This document shows positions 24,086 through 31,434 of a stretch of 56,150 bases of DNA, piece by piece. Each line of letters opens with the position of its first letter. Within the stretch, counting starts at the first letter, position 1. Both the position numbers and the translations under genes were made by a program. Source of the stretch: a virus (taxonomy: Duplodnaviria; Caudoviricetes); the IMG/VR virus record IMGVR_UViG_3300037097_000033, positions 1 to 56,150 of that record. The stretch is one strand, 5' to 3'. The notes under the pieces are model-generated. The model ran no database searches, was not told where the DNA came from, and saw only the letters and a list, made by a program, of their open reading frames with translations.

Positions 24086-27000
24086 CTACTTCCTAGCGAC
24101 CGACTGCTTCGTCCCGGCAACGGCGGCGCTGTGGATGTTGGCCGGTTTGAACGCCGTCGCAGCGTTAGCGGCAGCGGTACCGAGCTTGCCGGCCGCCGTC
24201 TCTAACTGACTGGCCGCACTGGTGAGGTTGAACGCCGCCGTCTGAGTCGTGTTCGCAGCGTTGGTCTGCTGGCTGGCCGCGTTTAGGAACTTCGAGAGCG
24301 TCGCCGTCTCCTGCTTGGCCGCGTCGGAGAGCTGAGAGGCGCTCATCTTGTTATGGTCGGCAGCGTCCTGCTGCTTGACCGCTGCAGCGATGAGCTGAGT
24401 CTCCGCCCCGGCCACGGACTTGTCCTGGCCCGCTCCGGCCTTCATCTTGCTGGCGGCCGTGAGCGCACTGACGAAGGCGTTGACAGAGGGAGCAGAGACG
24501 CCCATGGCCGTCCCAAGGTGGCCAGCCGGGCTCCGGGCGTAGAGTTGCGCCGCCGTCGGGAACTGGGCCTGGTAGGCCGTCAGACTGCCTCGGGCGTTGC
24601 GCTGGGCCGTTCCCGCTGCCACCGCTGCCCCGGCCAGCCCCTCGTAGGCCATGGAGTGCAGGCCCGGGTGCGTGCGCTCGTAGACGGCGAGGCTCCCCGT
24701 GGCGTTGCGGTCGGCAGTCTGCGCCACGCTGAGGCGCTGCTGGAGTTGCTTGGTGAAGATCGGGTTTGCCTTGGTTTGGCGAGTGGTGAACGAGCCCATC
24801 AGCCCGGCGAGAGCACCGATGCCCCCGCCAACAAGCCAGTTCAGGCCAGGGATGGGGATAACGCTTGCAATGGTGGCGCCGAGGATCGCACCGTGGGCCA
24901 CGTCGACGGCGGTGCGGTCCTCTTGTGAGGTCAGGTGCTTCGTCTTCAGGTAGGGCTCGCCGTATTTGTTGAAGGCGTAGAGGGCCGCGGCTCCGACGAC
25001 TGCCTTGGTGGCAGCCCCGAGTGCGAACTGCTTCAGGTTCTTGCCGCCGAGGCTGAACATGCCGAACAGCCCGGCGTCCTCCTCCAGGCCCGTGGCCGCG
25101 GTGCCTTCGCCTGCAGGTACCAGTGACGTGCCTCCGCCGCCTGGCAACCTCGTGCCGGGCACGCCCATGAGCCGGTCGGCCGCCACCTGCAGGCTCCCCC
25201 CGGCGGCGTTCAGGCTGGTGCCGGCGACGTTGAGCGACGCACTCGAAGCGGCAGACGAGCCGCCTAAGAGGTACCGGACGCCAGAGCCGAGCTTCTCGAT
25301 GACCGAGATCGTCTTTATGGTCGCAGCACCAGCCACGATCGAACCAGCAAGGATGCCCAACGCGGCCAAGGCGCCCTTGTTCTTGCCGAACCACTGGCCG
25401 ACGCTGAGCAGGTCTTTGCCGAAGGTCTCCAGCGCCGGGGTGATGTCCTGGCCGATCTTGATGGTCAGGTTCTCGAACGCCTGCCCCAGCTTGGCGAACG
25501 TGACGGTCGGCTCACCGAAGGCGAGGGCGAGCTCACTGCCGTAGGTCTTCGGGTTCTCACCTGCAACGATCCCGGTTTGTTTAGCTGTAGCGGTGGCGCT
25601 CTCGTTCATGAGCTGCATGATGGCGGCGCCGGTATGACCGCCTCCGAACATGCCGCCGATGATGGCGGACTGCACGCTCTTCTCCGCTTCAGTGCCGGTG
25701 GTGCCCTTGGCGAAGCCCATCCCTGCCAGTTGCGCCGTGGTCATCTTGGCGAAGCTGGCGATGCCGCCCGCGCTCTCCATGACGGACGCCTGTGCCGGGG
25801 TGAAGCCGAGGACGCGCAGGTATTCGCCCGCACCGGAGCCGACGCCCTTAGTGCCGCCGGTGATGGTGCCCAAGCCGCCGCCGTAGAAGGCGCTGGCAAA
25901 CGTCGAGCCCGTCACGCGTCCGGTCGTCAACGTGTTCAGGTAGCTGAGGAGCGCAGCGCCGCCCTTCGAGCGCAGCGTGCTAGCGGCGGTGGTGATGTTG
26001 CCGCCGAACAGCTCGAATCCTTCCGACGCCTTGGCCGACGGGGCGGCAAGCATGCCGATGGCGGTCTTGAGCCGGGTGGATGCGCTGGTGGCCCCCATGG
26101 CTGGCGTCAGCACGTCGAGCCACGCGCCGACGGTGTTCAAGGGGATACCGAAGGTCTTGGCGATGGACAGAAGGCCGGTGCCCATGGCCGCCGAGACGCC
26201 GCCGACGGTGATGTCGCCGTGGCCGGTAACGGCGTTGATCCACTCGTTTATCGCTTTACCCGAGGCGGCCGAGTAGGTGAGAGCTTTACCGCCAGCAGTG
26301 AGGGACAGTTGATTGCTGACGATAGCCCCGTACGCCTTGGACTCAGCCGTCGGGTTCGCTGAGTTGCCCGCCAAGACGTTGAGCTCGGCCGCCTGGTTGG
26401 TCATGGCCAGCAGCGACGAGGTGCTCGTCTTCAGCGCCGGGTTGGCCGATGCAAGGTAGTAGGCCATGTTGGCGACGTTGGTGGCCGACATGCCGGTGGC
26501 GTCGCTGATCTTCATGAAGCCAGCGGCCAGGGCGGGCAACTGCTTGGCGCTGAGGCCGGCATTGATCCCGAGCTGGGTGACCTGCTGGTTGTAGGTGAGG
26601 AACTTCTTGACGCCCTCATATCCCACTACCGCACCGATGATCGAGCCCCACTTGAGGATCTTGGTCGACCCGGCCACGGCGGCGTCCCACGAACCGGCCA
26701 CACCGGCGGCGGCGGTCTTCGATGCGTCGGCCACTTTGCCTTGGGAGGCGACCACGGCGTCCGAGGCAACCCCGACCTTCTCGGCTGCGAGCTCAGACGC
26801 GCCGGCGATGTCGCTTTGGGCACCAACGATGGCGTCCCGGGCGGCGACCGTCTCAGTTGCCTCCGCCTTGACGGCATCCGCACTGGCGCCAGCACTCGTC
26901 TTGACCGCGTCGGCCGACTCCTCGGCGCTGTCGGAGATGGTGCCGGCCGTCTCTTTGGCCAGCTCGGCCGCCCGCTCCTGCTCGTCGTTGAAGGCGGCTA

Positions 27001-27097
27001 GGGCCTCGGTGGCTGCCTGGAGCCCGGCCCTGAAGGTATCCGCATCCAATAAAACAAGCCTGGCTCCAACAGCTTCAACGGCCCCCATATCGCTCAC
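24086..27097 (-). CDS. tape measure protein
   Basis: 1003 aa, Ala/Gly-rich, downstream of tail chaperones. Confidence 0.9.
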   Translation of the reverse strand: MSDMGAVEAVGARLVLLDADTFRAGLQAATEALAAFNDEQERAAELAKETAGTISDSAEESADAVKTSAGASADAVKAEATETVAARDAIVGAQSDIAGASELAAEKVGVASDAVVASQGKVADASKTAAAGVAGSWDAAVAGSTKILKWGSIIGAVVGYEGVKKFLTYNQQVTQLGINAGLSAKQLPALAAGFMKISDATGMSATNVANMAYYLASANPALKTSTSSLLAMTNQAAELNVLAGNSANPTAESKAYGAIVSNQLSLTAGGKALTYSAASGKAINEWINAVTGHGDITVGGVSAAMGTGLLSIAKTFGIPLNTVGAWLDVLTPAMGATSASTRLKTAIGMLAAPSAKASEGFELFGGNITTAASTLRSKGGAALLSYLNTLTTGRVTGSTFASAFYGGGLGTITGGTKGVGSGAGEYLRVLGFTPAQASVMESAGGIASFAKMTTAQLAGMGFAKGTTGTEAEKSVQSAIIGGMFGGGHTGAAIMQLMNESATATAKQTGIVAGENPKTYGSELALAFGEPTVTFAKLGQAFENLTIKIGQDITPALETFGKDLLSVGQWFGKNKGALAALGILAGSIVAGAATIKTISVIEKLGSGVRYLLGGSSAASSASLNVAGTSLNAAGGSLQVAADRLMGVPGTRLPGGGGTSLVPAGEGTAATGLEEDAGLFGMFSLGGKNLKQFALGAATKAVVGAAALYAFNKYGEPYLKTKHLTSQEDRTAVDVAHGAILGATIASVIPIPGLNWLVGGGIGALAGLMGSFTTRQTKANPIFTKQLQQRLSVAQTADRNATGSLAVYERTHPGLHSMAYEGLAGAAVAAGTAQRNARGSLTAYQAQFPTAAQLYARSPAGHLGTAMGVSAPSVNAFVSALTAASKMKAGAGQDKSVAGAETQLIAAAVKQQDAADHNKMSASQLSDAAKQETATLSKFLNAASQQTNAANTTQTAAFNLTSAASQLETAAGKLGTAAANAATAFKPANIHSAAVAGTKQSVARK

Positions 27098-27150
27098 GGG
27101 CGTATCTCCTTAGCGTGGGGGTTGGCGGGTATAGCGACGGAGTAAGATCT

Positions 27151-27183
27151 TTGACGAGTACCCATATATGCGTATGGACTCGC
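27151..27183 (+). promoter_or_regulatory. putative promoter with imperfect palindrome for the RAMP-like moron
   Basis: TTGACG then CGAGTacCCATA-tatgcg-TATGGACTCG. Confidence 0.45.
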
Positions 27184-27207
27184 CGCTGGCTAGGAGACAG
27201 CGTTCTT

Positions 27208-27825
27208 ATGGCTGAGATCGAGATCAAGCGGATCGGCCGTCACATGGCCGTCATCCCCATCAAGGGGACAGCACCCCTGATCGTTCACCGCTTCGACGAG
27301 AAGTCGAAGCAGACAATGCTGGACAGCATGCAGGGCCGCAAGAAGCCCAAAGAAACACGGGATCCCGATGCCGACTATCAGCGGGCGTTCCACCGCCTGC
27401 CGAATGGCGATTACGGTTTTCCGGCCACGGCGTTCAAAGCTGCGACCGTGGGAGGTGCCCGCTATTTTCAGGACAAGAAATTGTCCATGACCTTGCTCAA
27501 GCAATCGCTGTTCGTGACCGGCGAAGGTCCCGACATGCTCGTTCCCATCGAGGGCGCCGAGCCGAAGATGCGAGAGGACCATGTTCGCATCAGCATGAGT
27601 TCCACCGACCTGCGCTACCGGCCGATGTTTGACCCGTGGGGCACGACCCTGAACGTCATCTTCGTGCCGACACTTCTCAGCCTTGAGTCGGTGGTCGCCC
27701 TAGTCGATGCCGGTGGCCTTGGTGGCGTAGGCGAGTGGCGCCCGTCATCCAAGATGTCAGCGACCGGTGTCTACGGCACCTATCAGGTCGACATGGAGTC
27801 CGAGGTCAAGGAGATCAAGCGGTGA
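27208..27825 (+). CDS. Cas7/RAMP-like RNA-binding protein
   Basis: IKGTAPLIVH strand, YGFPATAFKAA helix, RYRPMFDPW, Gly-rich loop GGLGGVGEWRP...GVYGTYQV; AGGAG RBS. Confidence 0.75.
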   Translation: MAEIEIKRIGRHMAVIPIKGTAPLIVHRFDEKSKQTMLDSMQGRKKPKETRDPDADYQRAFHRLPNGDYGFPATAFKAATVGGARYFQDKKLSMTLLKQSLFVTGEGPDMLVPIEGAEPKMREDHVRISMSSTDLRYRPMFDPWGTTLNVIFVPTLLSLESVVALVDAGGLGGVGEWRPSSKMSATGVYGTYQVDMESEVKEIKR

Positions 27826-28250
27826 GCAAACGCCAAGTTATCGAGGAAGCACTACAGGCCATCTATGACGAGAGGGGCGACCTCGTGCCAGCACAGATCG
27901 TCACGCTCGCTTCAGATGCCGCCCACCCGCTACATCCGTTCTTCACCTGGGACGATTCGACAGCGGCAGCCAAGTACCGGCTCGGCCAAGCTCAGGCCCT
28001 GGTCCGGTCGGTCAAGATCAAGGTCGTCACCGATAACGACACTTACAGCGTGCGCGCTTGGCACGCTCTGCGCAATGTCGGCCAGGACCGGACTGGCTAC
28101 GTGCCCGACTCGGAGGTCCAAGAAAATCCTGAACAGCGGAAGTTCCTTCTTCAATCGTTCAAGCGGGACTGGAATGCGATGAAGCGTCGCTATGAACACG
28201 TCGACGAGTTTTGGGACGTCATCCGCCAGGATGTGCCCGTAGCCGTTTAG
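27822..28250 (+). CDS. accessory protein coupled to the RAMP-like gene
   Basis: GTGA overlap; HPLHPFFTWDDSTAAAKYRLGQAQALVRSV. Confidence 0.75.
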   Translation: MSKRQVIEEALQAIYDERGDLVPAQIVTLASDAAHPLHPFFTWDDSTAAAKYRLGQAQALVRSVKIKVVTDNDTYSVRAWHALRNVGQDRTGYVPDSEVQENPEQRKFLLQSFKRDWNAMKRRYEHVDEFWDVIRQDVPVAV

Positions 28251-28252
28251 TA

Positions 28253-28537
28253 GTTCAGTCATGGAAGGGTTAGGTCGGTCCCGGTGCTGCTCGGAGCGGC
28301 AGTGCTGGCCGTGGCAGTAATGGCTAGGAGGGCATAGGCGCGGCGTGGCAGGTTGGGTGCGGCTTGGCCAGGCGCGGCGTGGTACGTCAGGGTTCTGCTC
28401 GGCGCGCAATGGCAGGCGAGGTCAGGAATGGTGCGGTACGTCATGTTCGGGTTTGGCGTGGCAGGTTGGGTGCGGCTCGGCCAGGCGCGTCTTGTTGCTG
28501 AGCGTCTGGGTGCGGCAGGAATGGTGCAGCGGGGTGC
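28253..28537 (+). ncRNA. 5-nt periodic (GGY-NN)n array split by GGCA; putative guide RNA precursor
   Basis: 53 pentamers in six blocks (12, 6, 12, 9, 10, 4) separated by GGCA at 28313, 28347, 28411, 28460, 28514. Confidence 0.75.
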
Positions 28538-28540
28538 CGT

Positions 28541-28774
28541 TTATAGGCCGATGTGGGCGATCTGCTCGCGCACCGCCTTGAACTGCTCGCTCAGGAACTT
28601 GAGCTGGTCGAGCCGGCGCTTGCCGTCAAGCTCTAAAGCCTTGGCGAGGACGGCCGTGCGGATCTGGAGCTCGTCACCTGTCGAGGCCAGCCATTCCATC
28701 GGGTCGTGACCGAGCAGTGCCACGTAGGCGGCCTGTTCAACTAAGGAGTGGCCCTTTAGGGCCTCGGAAAACCC
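28541..28774 (-). CDS. tail assembly chaperone -1 frameshift extension (gpGT-like)
   Basis: -1 frame open from the slippery site: FSEALKGHSLVEQAAY...IGL. Confidence 0.7.
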   Translation of the reverse strand, partial: GFSEALKGHSLVEQAAYVALLGHDPMEWLASTGDELQIRTAVLAKALELDGKRRLDQLKFLSEQFKAVREQIAHIGL

Positions 28775-29358
28775 TTGTCGGCCTTCTCCGACGCCTTGGA
28801 CGACCACTCGGCGAGTTGAAAGGCGGCGCTCGTCAGGTCGCCCTCGGTGACGTACAGCGCCCGGCACACCCCTACCGCCGTGCGACCGTCGGTGACCAGC
28901 GCCGGCCCGAGCATGGCGGCCAGGTCGGGGTCCATGCGCGTCCAGGCGCCGGTAGGGTCGCCCTCTCTCAGTGAGTACTGCGTCTCGTCACCGGGGAGGA
29001 TGGCGTAGACGCCGATGCAGCAGTCGGCCAGGATCTGGGCGTTGGTCTGAGTGGCCCAGTCTCGAGCGCCGATCTTCTGGAAGCGCTCGGAAATGGCCGA
29101 GGCCTCGCTGGGCGCCACCGGGCGGTAGCGTACCCAAACCTTTAGGCCCATGCCCCGGCCGGACGGCGGCAGTTCGTCCCAGCGCGGTACTTCCAGGTCG
29201 AGGTAGAGCTCGTCTCTGACGGCGGCCAGCTTGGCCTTGAGGCCGGCGAGCGGGGACGGGACGGGCGGCGGTGTGGGTGCTTCCGAGCGGAAAGCCTCGG
29301 GCTCGGGTTCAGGGCCCGGCTCCGAGGCTTCCACGGCGGTGATATTGACGTTGGTCAT
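28756..29358 (-). CDS. tail assembly chaperone
   Basis: between tube and tape measure; ends in slippery site. Confidence 0.75.
   Translation of the reverse strand: MTNVNITAVEASEPGPEPEPEAFRSEAPTPPPVPSPLAGLKAKLAAVRDELYLDLEVPRWDELPPSGRGMGLKVWVRYRPVAPSEASAISERFQKIGARDWATQTNAQILADCCIGVYAILPGDETQYSLREGDPTGAWTRMDPDLAAMLGPALVTDGRTAVGVCRALYVTEGDLTSAAFQLAEWSSKASEKADKGFPRP
28768..28774 (-). other. programmed -1 ribosomal frameshift site G GGT TTT
   Basis: X XXY YYZ heptamer just before the chaperone stop codon. Confidence 0.75.
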
Positions 29359-29395
29359 TTAGGGCGTGCTCCCTTTTGGTTTGCGGTGCGCTGGT

Positions 29396-29848
29396 TTAGT
29401 TGGCCAGGGTCGTGGCGTTGATCTGTACGGTCCACTTACGGGCGGCTTCGGAGTCGGAGTCGACGTTGCCCAGCTTTATGTCGCCGAGCATGCCTTGCCA
29501 TGTGCGGGGCGTGCCGAAGGCGGACAGGTTGGCGTCGAGCGGCTGCTCGCTCACCGTTGCGCGGGCCATGCCGCTAAGCGCGAGGAGCTTCGACGACAAT
29601 TGCTGGTCGTTGTCGCCGAACCCGTCGCTGCCGTTGTTGTAGACGCGTTCAAGGGTGAGCGCGTCGTATTTGATCAGGCTCGGGTAGATGACCTCGGTCT
29701 TACTGCCGCCGGGCCGGTGCTTGATTGGTGCGGTGGTGACATCTCCACCGTCTCGCTTGTCCCAGGTGCCGCAGTTGATGGCTGCCGCACCCGCCGGGCT
29801 GAGTGGTTGAACATGAAGGGTCAACAGTGCCATCTGTTCTGAGGACAT
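29396..29848 (-). CDS. tail tube protein
   Basis: 150 aa after sheath; KHRPGG...LTLERVY...DSDS. Confidence 0.8.
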   Translation of the reverse strand: MSSEQMALLTLHVQPLSPAGAAAINCGTWDKRDGGDVTTAPIKHRPGGSKTEVIYPSLIKYDALTLERVYNNGSDGFGDNDQQLSSKLLALSGMARATVSEQPLDANLSAFGTPRTWQGMLGDIKLGNVDSDSEAARKWTVQINATTLAN

Positions 29849-29886
29849 GGGTTTCCTTTCGTGCTAAATCGTGATTGGAAGGGCGA

Positions 29887-31434
29887 TTAGGTACCGGCTG
29901 AGGCGTTGGTCCCAGCCGGGACTACGACCACGCTGTTCATGACGAACTCCGCCGTGGGACTGAATGCCACGGTCGTGGCCGCGAGCAGTTCGCCCGCGGC
30001 GAGGGTTATCGGGGTGTTCACCTGCGGGCCGGTGTTGACGCTGAAGGCGGCCGAGGCGGTGGCCCCGTACAAGGCACCGTTTTGCCACTCGCCCTGGCAG
30101 ACCCCGGCGATCGCTCCGTTGTAGGCGCTGATGGTATGGCCTTCACCGTCGATCTGTTCGAAGACGAAGGGCTTGCCAGCCTGGTCGAACAGGCTCTTGA
30201 GCGACATGCGCTCCCGGGCGTAGTTGGCCTGCGCCCACGCCGGGTTAGACGAGAAGGTGACGAAGCCGTAGAGCTCCACCGGTCCCCCCTGGCCGAACTG
30301 GCGGATGACCGAAACCCCGGCCGTGTTCAGCGTGCCCCGGTCGGCCTGGACATAGGTCTGCGTGACGCCGATGGCGTAGCTGGAGATGCCATTAGCGCCG
30401 GCGGCGGCGACGTTGCAGTTGTTGTTCTGGTCCGAGGTCGCCAGGAGGGCAGCGACCAGAGCGGAGGGCGGGACCGTGCGCGTGTTGGCCACAGGGGACG
30501 CCCCGATGGCCGCGCCGGCAATGCCGGGGATGATGACCCACGGGGCCAGGAACATCCCGAAGGAACCGTCGCCGCTCGTGATGCTCTGCACCGAGCTCAC
30601 GACGGAGCTCGCGGTCGCGGAGTCGACATCGTCGCAAAGAGCGAACCGGTTGTTGATCAGCGCGCCCGAGGACGGATCGAGCGCACCGGCGTGGGCGAGG
30701 AGAGCCTCCCACCCGAGTACGGTCGTGTGGCCTGGCGCGCAGACCTGGCCGGGGCCGAGCTCGGGTGGGAACGCAGTCAGAGCGCTGGTCCACGGCGTCT
30801 CGGTGACGCCCGCAAGGTTGTCGGCGCCCGTAGCGAGGTTGGTGGCAGCCAGGACGGCCGGGTTGTTGGTCGGCGAGACGCTCGCGCTGCCGTCGTTGGC
30901 GATCGTGAACGGGAACGCCCACGGCGTGGTGCCGGCCATGTTGGTGGCCCAGGTAACGGCGTCCGCCGGGAAGAACAGGTTCGGCGATACCCAGCTCTGG
31001 CCCGTGGCCGGGTTGGCGATGGTGATGACGTAGCTGTTGGAGGCGGTGCCGTTCGCCACTGCCACGGTGCACGCGTTGCCCCACACGCCGCCGCCGTTGG
31101 CCGTGACGGTCAGGGTGGAAAGCGGGCTGCCGGCCCGGTCCACCAGGACCAGGGTGGCATTGACGGCCGACGGGCCCACGATGCGGGAGCCGTAGGCCAG
31201 GACCCCGCCATCGTGGAAGAACTCGTCAAACCAGTCGTAAAACATCGTGTAGCCGTTGCGGGTGCCCAGGTAGGAGGCGTAGTCGGTCATCGACGTGATG
31301 GGGATGGCCACGCCGACCGGCCCTTGGGCCGCTTCACCGGTGACGAACGCCGTGCCGGTGCTGGGGGCGAGCCCGGCCGACGGAGCGGCGGCGATGATGT
31401 TGACGTAGTTGCCGGGGGCAGTGGGGACGGTCAT
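29887..31434 (-). CDS. tail sheath protein
   Basis: APGNYV, TAFVTG..QGP, VPPSALVAA, LNTAGVSVIR, FVFEQID. Confidence 0.9.
   Translation of the reverse strand: MTVPTAPGNYVNIIAAAPSAGLAPSTGTAFVTGEAAQGPVGVAIPITSMTDYASYLGTRNGYTMFYDWFDEFFHDGGVLAYGSRIVGPSAVNATLVLVDRAGSPLSTLTVTANGGGVWGNACTVAVANGTASNSYVITIANPATGQSWVSPNLFFPADAVTWATNMAGTTPWAFPFTIANDGSASVSPTNNPAVLAATNLATGADNLAGVTETPWTSALTAFPPELGPGQVCAPGHTTVLGWEALLAHAGALDPSSGALINNRFALCDDVDSATASSVVSSVQSITSGDGSFGMFLAPWVIIPGIAGAAIGASPVANTRTVPPSALVAALLATSDQNNNCNVAAAGANGISSYAIGVTQTYVQADRGTLNTAGVSVIRQFGQGGPVELYGFVTFSSNPAWAQANYARERMSLKSLFDQAGKPFVFEQIDGEGHTISAYNGAIAGVCQGEWQNGALYGATASAAFSVNTGPQVNTPITLAAGELLAATTVAFSPTAEFVMNSVVVVPAGTNASAGT

What the first reader, a model, noticed from the sequence alone, without database searches (positions are those of the whole stretch)
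28253..28537. The array parses into six GGCA-delimited units with readable dinucleotide codes
Seen: triplet-plus-NN pentamers, with triplets mostly GGC/GGT and otherwise GTC, GTT, GGA, TGC or GCA; register resets only at a 4-nt GGCA. NN strings are U1 28253-28312 CA AT AG TA CG CC GC TC GC AG TG GT; U2 28317-28346 AT TA GG TA GC GT; U3 28351-28410 TG GC TT CA GC GT AC AG TC TC GC AT; U4 28415-28459 GA CA AT GC AC AT CG TT GT; U5 28464-28513 TG GC TC CA GC TT GC GC TG GC; U6 28518-28537 AT GC GG GC. Segments 28342-28376 and 28455-28489 are identical but for one base, and CAGGAATGGTGC occurs twice, suggesting growth by duplication and divergence. Inference: GGCA marks processing sites and each unit specifies a non-contiguous target; an NN-skip-NN code would ignore codon wobble positions.
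Basis: partly seen in the sequence, partly recalled or inferred. Interest (0 to 1): 0.88.

Follow-up and report, generated by a model that had tools for sequence, protein, structure and literature searches.

The report
Phage VIPR guide-RNA repeat array
This stretch is the guide-RNA array of a VIPR system, a phage-borne relative of CRISPR described in 2026 that reads DNA through two-letter codes carried on five-letter repeats, so it is a new example of a known kind.

Summary

The array lies directly 3' of two + strand genes. Gene A (27208-27825) is a minimal RAMP. Its model matches Cas7/Csm3. Its profile finds the characterised Vipr of phage SUSP1, with the GGY-reading residues conserved. Gene B (27822-28250) is a conserved accessory gene.

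2026 preprints describe this system as VIPR. GGY/NN repeat RNAs are bound one Vipr per repeat, and the NN bases pair with DNA while every third target base is skipped.

Relatives agree:
- 74 of 80 related viral loci carry same-strand arrays.
- 318 of 407 four-nt steps are GGCA, spaced 8-13 repeats apart.

A strain variant has 19 substitutions in the array against 3 in the two genes. Sixteen are at NN and none at GG.

Still open for this locus: no convincing target was found, and cleavage at GGCA and expression are not shown.

Verdict: a new member of a known kind, with the preprint's "staggered" array architecture.

The parts
27208..27825 (+). vipr: 205-aa minimal RAMP protein (gene A), phrog_4652
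   Evidence: PHROG hit at E 4e-32; no Pfam family. The family has 3290 hits at E<=1e-3. AF2 model: pLDDT 85.6. Foldseek: 63 PDB chains at E<=1e-3, and nearly all rows shown are Cas7-type RAMPs (type VII Cas7, Csm3, Cmr4, Cas7-11). Its profile finds the SUSP1 Vipr ORF at E 2.2e-10; hhalign probability 96.1%. The ATG at 27208 is confirmed.
27822..28250 (+). vap-like accessory gene (gene B), 142 aa, phrog_15946; its GTG start overlaps the vipr stop
   Evidence: PHROG hit at E 3e-24; no Pfam family. 8034 representative clusters at E<=1e-3. Present in 77 of 80 related loci and adjacent downstream of vipr on the same strand in 67. AF2 pLDDT 95. The N-terminal ~100 residues give only weak winged-helix matches (VIA Z 5.0-6.2; no Foldseek match at E<=1e-3). 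No detectable homology to SUSP1 vap1 (hhalign probability 0.3%).
28253..28312 (+). U1: 12 pentamers, degenerate (4 GGY); doubtful guide or decayed leader
   Evidence: The strain variant differs here only at NN positions, plus one whole-pentamer insertion after 28267.
28313..28316 (+). GGCA junction 1 (4-nt register reset)
   Evidence: GGCA makes up 318 of 407 four-nt steps in the arrays of 80 related loci.
28317..28346 (+). U2: 6 pentamers, degenerate (3 GGY)
28347..28350 (+). GGCA junction 2
28351..28410 (+). U3: candidate vrRNA guide, 12 repeats (9 GGY); begins with the longest strict GGYNN run (7)
   Evidence: Its length lies within the 8-13-repeat spacing of junctions in relatives.
28411..28414 (+). 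GGCA junction 3
28415..28459 (+). U4: candidate vrRNA guide, 9 repeats (6 GGY)
28460..28463 (+). GGCA junction 4
28464..28513 (+). U5: candidate vrRNA guide, 10 repeats (6 GGY); shares its first five NN, but for one base, with U3
   Evidence: The strain variant has 7 NN changes and 2 pyrimidine-for-pyrimidine changes at position 3.
28514..28517 (+). GGCA junction 5
28518..28537 (+). U6: terminal 4-repeat stub. Short terminal units also end the arrays of phages Donkeykong, ODay and Pipp

Best explanation
The array is the guide-RNA (vrRNA) array of a VIPR (Viral Interference Programmable Repeat) system. It belongs to a three-part + strand cassette: vipr (27208-27825), a vap-like gene (27822-28250) and the array.

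The cassette is inserted, in the opposite orientation, between the tail assembly chaperone-like genes and the tape measure gene of a contractile-tailed phage known from a peat metagenome.

How it works, taken from the preprints and not shown here:
- The array is transcribed on the + strand.
- Vipr protomers bind one per pentamer as a helical filament. They sequester G1, G2 and Y3 and present N4 and N5.
- The NN pairs base-pair with a double-stranded DNA target in which every third base is skipped (guide GGYNN to target xNN). This gives sequence-specific binding and transcriptional silencing of a competing phage or other mobile element.

Inferred here: the 4-nt GGCA shifts the repeat register by one base, so each run of about 9-12 repeats between junctions is one guide. 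This is the preprint's 'staggered' architecture, without the 3' tail of the SUSP1 type. U3, U4 and U5 are the likely working guides. U1 and U2 look decayed, and U6 is a terminal stub.
For: Protein
- The AF2 model of gene A (pLDDT 85.6) gives 63 PDB matches at E<=1e-3. The best are type VII Cas7, Cmr4 and Csm3 (E 9e-6 to 6e-4, TM about 0.5).
- The family profile hits exactly one ORF in phage SUSP1 (NC_028808.2 28474-29061, E 2.2e-10).
- hhalign to that ORF: probability 96.1%, E 3e-9.
- In that alignment the window's R139 and E177-W178-R179 sit on SUSP1 R138 and D177-W178-R179. The cryo-EM preprint names these as the contacts to G1, G2 and Y3.
- R139, E177, R179 and K33 are invariant in 24 family members.

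Array
- It meets the preprint's calling rule of at least 4 YNNGG repeats, with strict runs of 7 and 5.
- It lies on the same strand as vipr.

Comparative
- 74 of 80 related viral loci have arrays of at least 8 strict repeats on the vipr strand, and 1 of 80 on the other strand.
- Position 3 is a pyrimidine in 96% of 1,102 in-register pentamers, while positions 4 and 5 are even.
- 318 of 407 four-nt steps are GGCA. Distances between successive 4-nt steps peak at 44-69 nt, that is 8-13 repeats; shorter distances (5 and 14 nt) and longer ones also occur.
- The same architecture is seen in Mycobacterium phage Donkeykong and Gordonia phages ODay and Pipp.

Strain variation
- One DNA contig of run X6 spans 27101-28585.
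- It has 19 substitutions in the 285-nt array against 3 in 1,046 nt of the two genes (Fisher p 1e-10).
- By pentamer phase: 16 at NN, 3 at position 3, 0 at G1 or G2 (binomial p 1e-4).
- It also has an in-register 5-nt insertion.
- Pairs of loci with 91-97% identical vipr genes share only a few guides.

Skip rule within this clade
- 260 unique guides were searched against 1.17 Mb of fetched loci (both strands counted).
- Guides whose best hit reached >=85% of NN bases: 16 at skip 1, against 5, 8 and 9 at skips 0, 2 and 3, and 4 for shuffled guides.
- All 10 hits in rival vipr genes put the skipped base at the wobble position.

Literature
-.
Against: - No natural target was established for the window's own guides.
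  - A U3 seed of 9 NN had no match in viral contigs.
  - A U3 seed of 10 NN had 6 matches in metagenome contigs. Four of them share one identical sequence. The two places whose ORFs I listed are a cellular deacetylase-like gene and a lipoprotein signal peptide; in both the skipped base falls at codon position 1.
  - For U4, none of 19 seed matches extends to full length.
  - U5 has one perfect 10-of-10 match, in a terminase Walker A site (L091). About 0.06 such extensions are expected by chance from 16 seed hits, and the skipped base falls at codon position 2, not the wobble.
- The array is more degenerate than those of its relatives: 30 of 53 pentamers are GGY. In relatives' units the mean is 86%, although those units were pre-selected for at least 80% GG.
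- There is no conserved 3' tail as in SUSP1.
- Gene B is not homologous to SUSP1 vap1.
- Expression is not shown. Metatranscriptome contigs hold the stretch (X4 at 100% identity), but contigs give neither strand nor ends, and DNA carry-over is possible.
- The clade test is dominated by one guide, which gives 8 of the 10 vipr hits at one homologous site. Shuffled guides reached 7 hits at most.
- The VIPR mechanism itself rests on 2026 preprints.
Confidence: 0.9

Rival explanations
1. It is a VIPR-derived array that is decaying. The locus descends from a working system, but the guides in this phage no longer work, or only partly work. This rival shares the family assignment and differs only on present function.
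For: Only 30 of 53 pentamers are GGY. U5 has four consecutive non-GG pentamers, and U1 and U2 are mostly degenerate. No target was found.
Against: - vipr and the vap-like gene are intact.
- The two genes are nearly invariant between strains (3 substitutions in 1,046 nt), while the array changes at NN and never at GG. That pattern indicates continuing selection on the GGY frame.
- Relatives' arrays also carry GTC, GGA and GTT pentamers at a few percent.
- The preprint notes frequent internal degeneracy of vrRNAs.
Confidence: 0.12
2. It is a double-stranded DNA binding array (iterons, a centromere-like site or an origin) read by gene A or gene B, with no RNA guide role.
For: Short-period direct repeats next to a small, possibly winged-helix protein. 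In L002 and L003 the cassette sits in a replication module, next to SSB and primase-like genes.
Against: - Strict strand bias relative to vipr (74 of 80 loci against 1 of 80) is not expected of a duplex site.
- Gene A has the RAMP RNA-binding fold and the GGY-contact residues of SUSP1 Vipr.
- Hypervariable NN with a fixed GGY frame does not suit a binding site for a single protein.
- Arrays reach about 1 kb.
Confidence: 0.03
3. It is an RNA sponge or attenuator wrapped around a ring protein, in the manner of TRAP (triplet plus 2-nt spacer), or a run of two-tier G-quadruplexes. In either case it carries no sequence code.
For: Triplet-plus-NN periodicity. GG every 5 nt could form G2N3 quadruplexes. 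This was my own first idea, from recall and before the literature search.
Against: - Nothing in the cassette resembles TRAP; gene A is a Cas7-like RAMP.
- The L003 array is mostly NGCNN without GG, so quadruplex potential is not conserved.
- The NN turnover between close relatives and the wobble-phase matches to rival vipr genes indicate that the NN bases carry information.
Confidence: 0.02
4. It is translated, or is a functionless microsatellite.
For: ORFs of 61-159 aa overlap the array in the mechanical list. Equivalent arrays are annotated as hypothetical proteins in phages Donkeykong (gene 48) and Pipp (gene 43).
Against: - The period is 5, not 3.
- The strain variant carries a 5-nt insertion and further indels in the array, which would shift any frame.
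- Arrays are conserved next to vipr across proteins only 35-55% identical and across different GC contents.
Confidence: 0.01

Closest known systems
VIPR systems with 'staggered' vrRNA arrays (bioRxiv 10.64898/2026.04.26.720920, legend of fig. S18; legend text only, figure and supplements not seen)
   Same: A Vipr RAMP gene, an adjacent accessory gene and a continuous GGY/NN pentamer array in which one vrRNA ends where the next begins with a 1-nt overlap. GGCA followed by GG gives exactly a one-base register shift.
   Different: - The text I could read holds no occurrence of GGCA, Mycobacteri- or Actino-. I therefore cannot say whether this clade, the GGCA consensus or this contig is among the paper's 667 systems.
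- The paper states that the other two architectures, not named as including the staggered one, were confirmed by small-RNA sequencing.
- The VIPR type (I-VII) and vap number of this locus cannot be assigned without the closed supplements.
Type II VIPR of Escherichia phage SUSP1 (experimentally characterised; cryo-EM in 10.64898/2026.04.26.720927)
   Same: Homologous Vipr (hhalign 96.1%) with conserved G1, G2 and Y3 contact residues. GGY/NN repeats of 9-16 per guide. The gene order vipr then accessory gene. Arrays can lie on either side of the genes.
   Different: - In the sequence read, each SUSP1 repeat tract is followed by a non-repeat tail of about 40 nt (the preprint's conserved tail with a pseudoknot), and the tracts are separated by non-repeat stretches of roughly 100 nt.
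- Here the guides abut, separated only by GGCA.
- SUSP1 repeats are mostly GGT; here and in relatives GGC dominates (72% C at position 3).
- Gene B is unrelated to vap1.
Class 1 CRISPR Cas7-crRNA backbone (type III Csm3/Cmr4, type VII Cas7)
   Same: RAMP fold with G-loop and thumb. One protomer per fixed number of guide nucleotides. Periodic interruption of guide-target pairing by the thumb.
   Different: - The period is 5 nt with 2 pairing bases, rather than 6 nt with 5.
- There is no repeat-spacer array and no cas1 or cas2.
- No second RAMP, large subunit or small subunit lies beside it.
- Guide identity is spread over the repeats instead of sitting in a contiguous spacer.
TRAP (trp RNA-binding attenuation protein) binding sites, (G/U)AG plus 2-3 nt spacers (recalled, not from a call)
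   Same: A conserved triplet plus a variable dinucleotide, one protein subunit per repeat.
   Different: TRAP is a ring that wraps regulatory RNA and its spacers carry no code. No TRAP-like protein is present here.

Membership tests
VIPR system | Vipr protein: a minimal RAMP (RRM core, glycine-rich loop, thumb) homologous to characterised Vipr | tested here: met
   Foldseek finds Cas7-type RAMPs (63 chains at E<=1e-3). The family profile hits the SUSP1 Vipr ORF at E 2.2e-10; hhalign probability is 96.1%. The model has a beta hairpin at 121-142 carrying R139, and the G-rich loop GGxGGxGEWRP at 171-180.
VIPR system | Residues that read G1, G2 and Y3 (SUSP1 R138, D177, W178, R179) | tested here: met
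   They align to R139, E177, W178 and R179. R139, E177 and R179 are invariant in 24 family members. The role of these residues is taken from the cryo-EM preprint.
VIPR system | Adjacent candidate vrRNA: at least 4 tandem YNNGG repeats next to vipr, on its strand | tested here: met
   Strict GGYNN runs of 7 (28351-28385) and 5 (28464-28488), within 53 in-register pentamers that begin 3 nt after the gene B stop. 74 of 80 relatives have same-strand arrays.
VIPR system | GGY conserved and NN hypervariable among relatives | tested here: met
   In the strain variant, 16 of 19 array substitutions are at NN, 3 at position 3 and 0 at GG. In relatives position 3 is a pyrimidine in 96% of pentamers and positions 4 and 5 are even. 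Loci with near-identical vipr carry mostly different guides.
VIPR system | Accessory vap gene beside vipr | tested here: inconclusive
   Gene B is adjacent in 67 of 80 relatives, so it is a conserved partner. It is not homologous to SUSP1 vap1, and its winged-helix likeness is weak (Z up to 6.2). Which of vap1-6 it is, if any, needs the closed supplements.
VIPR system | Natural targets matching the NN code under the 1-nt skip rule, typically with the skipped base at the wobble position | tested here: inconclusive
   For the window's guides there is no self-target. There is one perfect U5 match in the wrong codon phase, with about 0.06 expected by chance. Nothing credible was found for U3 or U4. 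In the clade, skip 1 gives 16 best hits at >=85% against 5, 8 and 9 for other skips and 4 for shuffles. Hits on rival vipr genes are all wobble-phase, though dominated by one guide. Only exact-pattern scans were possible.
VIPR system | vrRNAs expressed, processed and bound by Vipr | not testable with these tools
   Metatranscriptome contigs of runs X4 and X14 hold the stretch, but as contigs only, without strand or ends.
VIPR type II (SUSP1-like) array architecture | Conserved 3' tail of about 40 nt with a pseudoknot after each repeat tract | tested here: not met
   The units abut, with only GGCA between them. After U6 the sequence runs into the 3' end of the convergent gene. This excludes the SUSP1-type architecture, not VIPR, because the preprint lists tail-less staggered arrays.
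CRISPR array | Direct repeats of about 23-50 nt separated by unique spacers, usually with cas1 and cas2 | tested here: not met
   No such repeats were found. There is no Rfam match at E<=1 apart from one chance lncRNA row. The two flanking genes are the only cassette genes.

The most novel reading that the evidence does not exclude
The 4-nt GGCA acts as a register break that measures out guides without any tail, ribozyme or ruler protein. Vipr reads G1 and G2 with one protomer and Y3 with the next, at a fixed 5-nt step. A unit that is one base short would therefore end one filament and force the next to nucleate one base out of phase. The short exposed junction would then be the only place host RNases can cut. 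If so, 'staggered' arrays define guide length by phase alone. The huge actinophage clade that carries them includes cultivated Mycobacterium smegmatis and Gordonia phages, where the arrays are currently annotated as protein genes. That clade would be a tractable place to show it.
Probability: 0.4. Interest if true: 0.5.

Novelty: new member of a known kind. Interest (0 to 1): 0.4.

Why it matters
The finding rediscovers, from raw sequence, the defining feature of VIPR. VIPR is a guide-RNA system proposed to predate CRISPR and to recognise DNA through a gapped dinucleotide code.

This locus adds nothing new in kind. It does show four things:
- The tail-less, GGCA-punctuated ('staggered') architecture is the norm in a very large family of high-GC phages. 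The Vipr family has 3290 database hits and the partner gene has 8034 representative clusters.
- The family includes cultivated Mycobacterium and Gordonia phages, so the one architecture the preprint did not name among those confirmed by RNA sequencing could be tested in laboratory strains.
- Strain-level data from peat and soil show the guides turning over while the two genes stay fixed. That is the signature of an arms race.
- Genome annotation pipelines call these arrays protein genes.

Tried and rejected
Searches that gave nothing
- Rfam at E<=1 over 27000-30000: only a chance lncRNA row.
- BLASTN of 27100-28900 against 50,697 phage records: no match.
- Pfam for genes A and B: none.
- Promoter and terminator scan of 26900-28800: no promoter-like site, and no terminator-like site after the array.
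- Tandem Repeats Finder does not see the array.

Ideas dropped after the literature search and fold results
- TRAP-like ring binding, G-quadruplex runs, replication iterons or centromere, Rho sites, and ssDNA-annealing protein sites.

GGAAT as a special signal
- It occurs in both copies of the 12-nt repeat and recurs in Donkeykong, ODay and Pipp.
- It was rejected: only 13 of 119 GGA pentamers in relatives are GGAAT, with no preferred position.

Flanks of the GGCA junction
- The pentamer before GGCA is not conserved.

Target searches
- Self-search of the contig at skips 0-3. No 1-skip match reached 80% for U1, U3, U4 or U5; their best were 16-17 of 24, 12 of 18 and 14 of 20. The 6- and 4-repeat units U2 and U6 reach 10 of 12 and 8 of 8 at almost every skip, which is the chance level for such short patterns. 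U5 also reaches 17 of 20 at skips 2 and 3, which I take as a GC-composition effect.
- U3, 9-NN seed, viral contigs: 0 hits.
- U5, 8-NN seed: 16 hits, one extending to 10 of 10. It lies in a terminase P-loop but in codon phase 2.
- U4, 8-NN seed: 19 hits, 8 or more of them one low-GC family, none full length.
- U3, 10-NN seed, metagenome contigs: 6 hits (four share one identical sequence). In the two loci whose ORFs I listed the real frames put the skipped base at codon position 1.
- One Donkeykong guide, 10-NN seed: 0 hits.
- Only exact matches could be scanned, so these misses do not show that targets are absent.

Host and prophage relatives
- Two genome-contig scans found no relative; one earlier try failed for lack of a conserved stretch.
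No host-clade search with mismatches could be run.

RNA evidence
- The X14 RNA contig ends at 28411, a GGCA junction. DNA contigs also break inside the array (X11 at 28397), and contigs cannot show RNA ends. This is not evidence of processing.
- My rebuilding of the variant's U3 region from the indel table lost register. I do not interpret 28357-28394.

Type assignment, vap numbering and the list of published loci could therefore not be checked.
Full report
**What is there**

The window is a whole 56,150-base viral contig (linear, estimated 67% complete, GC 65%).

The flagged stretch lies between convergent genes. Upstream on the + strand are gene A (27208-27825, 205 aa) and gene B (27822-28250, 142 aa, its start overlapping A's stop). 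Downstream on the - strand is an overlapping ORF pair (28756-29358 and 28541-28867). That pair has the position and overlap expected of tail assembly chaperones but matches no family.

Further along are the tail tube (29396-29848) and sheath (29887-31434). A 1003-aa ORF (24086-27097, - strand) lies on the far side of gene A. I take it to be the tape measure gene from its size, its composition and its place after the chaperone-like pair; no family search was run on it.

So A, B and the array form a + strand insertion inside a - strand tail operon.

**The observation**

GGCA follows each of the first five.

Over the 53 pentamers, position 1 is G in 48 and position 2 is G in 40. Position 3 is a pyrimidine in 44 and never G. 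Positions 4 and 5 use all four bases.

The lag-5 autocorrelation is the highest in the contig: the top seven of about 2,240 windows are all here. A register-tolerant score exceeds all 2,000 shuffles (22 against a maximum of 21).

The 35-nt duplication (1 mismatch, at 28365) and the twice-occurring 12-mer are as stated. U1, U2 and U6 are weak as units; U3-U5 are clean.

**First lead**

Databases of known elements gave nothing: Rfam, phage BLASTN and Pfam for A and B. Both proteins fall in unnamed PHROG families.

Homologues of B at 35% identity in other viral contigs also sit next to period-5 GGC-NN arrays on the same strand. One of these loci is low-GC (L002). Another carries about 1 kb of array (L003). 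That ruled out chance.

**Identification**

A full-text search for 'pentanucleotide repeat' with 'bacteriophage' and 'intergenic' returned a 2026 preprint describing VIPR systems. A second search found a cryo-EM companion and an infection-biology companion.

I read the following:
- For the discovery paper: the outline, Results, Discussion, parts 1-2 of the four-part Methods section and some supplementary-figure legends.
- For the cryo-EM paper: the outline and the first part of Results.
- For the third paper: the outline only.

According to these, Vipr is a ~20-kDa minimal RAMP. vrRNAs are 9-16 YNNGG (that is, GGY/NN) repeats. One protomer binds per repeat and sequesters GGY. The NN pairs base-pair with double-stranded DNA in which every third base is skipped, usually the codon wobble base. 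Natural targets are competing phages, satellites and other VIPR systems.

Architectures other than the SUSP1 tail type are listed, including 'staggered arrays with overlapping vrRNAs'. [quoted passage not shown]

**Testing membership: the protein**

- The AF2 model of A (pLDDT 85.6) matches Cas7-type RAMPs. There are 63 chains at E<=1e-3; the best are type VII Cas7, Cmr4 and Csm3.
- I recalled the SUSP1 accession, and the tool confirmed it.
- The A-family profile hits one ORF there at E 2.2e-10. It lies in a two-gene locus flanked by GGT-NN repeat tracts.
- hhalign gives 96.1% probability.
- It aligns the window's YRP (R139) and GVGEWRP (E177, W178, R179) with SUSP1 R138 and D177-W178-R179. 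The cryo-EM preprint reports these residues as the readers of G1, G2 and Y3.
- R139, E177 and R179 are invariant in the 24-member alignment.

**Testing membership: gene B**

B is not related to SUSP1 vap1 (probability 0.3%). Its model (pLDDT 95) gives only weak winged-helix matches. It is nevertheless a fixed partner, adjacent downstream of vipr in 67 of 80 related loci.

**Testing membership: the array in relatives**

- Of 80 related viral loci (42-55% protein identity), 74 have arrays of at least 8 strict GGYNN repeats on the vipr strand, and 1 has one on the other strand.
- In-register pentamers have a pyrimidine at position 3 in 96% of cases, and even composition at positions 4 and 5.
- Four-nt steps number 407, of which 318 are GGCA. 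Distances between successive 4-nt steps peak at 44, 49, 54, 59, 64 and 69 nt, that is 8-13 repeats; shorter (5 and 14 nt) and longer distances also occur.
- Mycobacterium phage Donkeykong and Gordonia phages ODay and Pipp show the same GGCA-punctuated arrays.

**Testing membership: variation**

The stretch occurs in many peat and soil runs: 13 runs hold at least half of its words, and the holders span 19 studies.

One DNA contig of run X6 spans 27101-28585. It differs by 3 substitutions in 1,046 nt of genes A and B, and by 19 substitutions in the 285-nt array (Fisher p 1e-10).

By pentamer phase, 16 are at NN, 3 at position 3 and 0 at G1 or G2 (binomial p 1e-4). Two of the three position-3 changes are pyrimidine for pyrimidine. 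There is also an in-register 5-nt insertion.

I leave 28357-28394 uninterpreted, because the indel table could not be rebuilt in register.

Among related loci, pairs whose vipr genes are 91-97% identical share only one to three guides.

**Targets**

I could only scan the large collections for exact patterns. The window's guides have no self-target under the 1-skip rule.

- U3: no 9-NN seed hit in viral contigs. Six 10-NN seed hits in metagenome contigs, four sharing one identical sequence. The two I examined (L128, L130) lie in cellular genes, with the skipped base at codon position 1.
- U4: 19 seed hits, none full length.
- U5: 16 seed hits. One extends to all 10 NN, in the Walker A region of a large terminase gene (L091). 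About 0.06 such extensions are expected by chance, and the skipped base is at codon position 2. I treat it as unproven.

Within the clade I kept 267 of 677 parsed chains, those with at least 8 repeats and at least 80% GGY; 260 are unique. They were searched against 1.17 Mb of fetched loci (both strands counted).

Guides whose best hit reached >=85% of NN bases numbered 16 at skip 1, against 5, 8 and 9 at skips 0, 2 and 3, and 4 for shuffled guides.

Hits in rival vipr genes (10, of which 8 come from one guide at one homologous site) all lie on the coding strand with the skipped base at the wobble position. Twenty rounds of shuffling gave a mean of 2.3 hits and a maximum of 7.

[quoted passage not shown] It is modest evidence.

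**Expression**

Metatranscriptome contigs of run X4 cover the whole stretch at 100% identity, and those of X14 cover part of it. They are contigs, without strand or ends, and DNA carry-over cannot be excluded.

**Mechanism: shown and inferred**

- Shown here: the repeat anatomy; the RAMP fold and homology to Vipr; conserved GGY-contact residues; the same-strand association in relatives; conserved GGCA junctions at guide-length spacing; NN-confined strain variation.
- Taken from preprints: filament assembly, the 1-nt skip pairing and silencing.
- Inferred: that GGCA delimits guides by shifting the register, that U3-U5 are the working guides, and that the targets are competing mobile elements in the same, unidentified host.

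**Verdict**

This is a VIPR locus with a staggered vrRNA array. It is a new member of a kind that was described in 2026 preprints.

Targets, processing and expression of this particular locus remain open.

Noticed in passing
window 27208-28537, between 27097 and 28541; L006 (Gordonia phage ODay) 1251-4206: The cassette sits between the tail assembly chaperone-like genes and the tape measure gene, here on the opposite strand to the tail operon. In Gordonia phage ODay a vipr cassette, together with HTH genes, occupies the same chaperone-to-tape-measure junction. This looks like a recurrent insertion spot for accessory cassettes.
   Followed up: partly
L005 (Mycobacterium phage Donkeykong) 1980-2366; L007 (Gordonia phage Pipp) 3117-3386: Annotated hypothetical protein genes (Donkeykong gene 48, Pipp gene 43) coincide with GGCA-punctuated GGYNN arrays next to the vipr homologue. 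They are probably miscalled non-coding arrays. 27 Mycobacterium and 5 Gordonia phage records hold a vipr homologue.
   Followed up: partly
L003 4440-5400: An array of about 1 kb after the vipr and vap genes. Its conserved core is mostly NGC rather than GGY (AGC, TGC and GGC pentamers). This may be one of the 'related consensus' repeat types that the preprint mentions. A primase-like gene follows.
   Followed up: no
L002 1-150: In this low-GC contig the array lies upstream of the gene B homologue. Its units are separated by a 10-nt in-register CCACAAGGCA rather than by a bare GGCA. An SSB gene follows. The contig ends inside the array.
   Followed up: no
L015 5481-5550 and L035 5559-5628: A solitary 14-repeat unit about 1.2 kb beyond the main array is nearly identical in two loci whose main arrays mostly differ. 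It may be a solo vrRNA.
   Followed up: no
L019 3615-3664 against L014 3538-3566 and L032 3541-3569: The first guide of one locus matches the 3' end of the vipr gene of other loci at 19 of 20 NN bases under the 1-nt skip rule, in wobble phase. This is a candidate case of one VIPR system aimed at another.
   Followed up: partly
L091 2-1732 (- strand): The large terminase ORF that holds the perfect U5 match appears to carry an insertion right after the Walker A GK (PPRHGK followed by about 190 unrelated residues, then motifs resume). This would suit an intein. It was not tested.
   Followed up: no
window 28541-29358 (- strand): The ORFs 28756-29358 and 28541-28867 overlap by about 110 nt in different frames, as expected of a frameshifted tail assembly chaperone pair. 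Neither has a Pfam or PHROG match. No slippery site was looked for.
   Followed up: no
L005 2148-2207: One Donkeykong guide is an internal duplication: the same six-NN string occurs twice in a row. This suggests either a tandemly repeated target or a recent duplication within the array.
   Followed up: no
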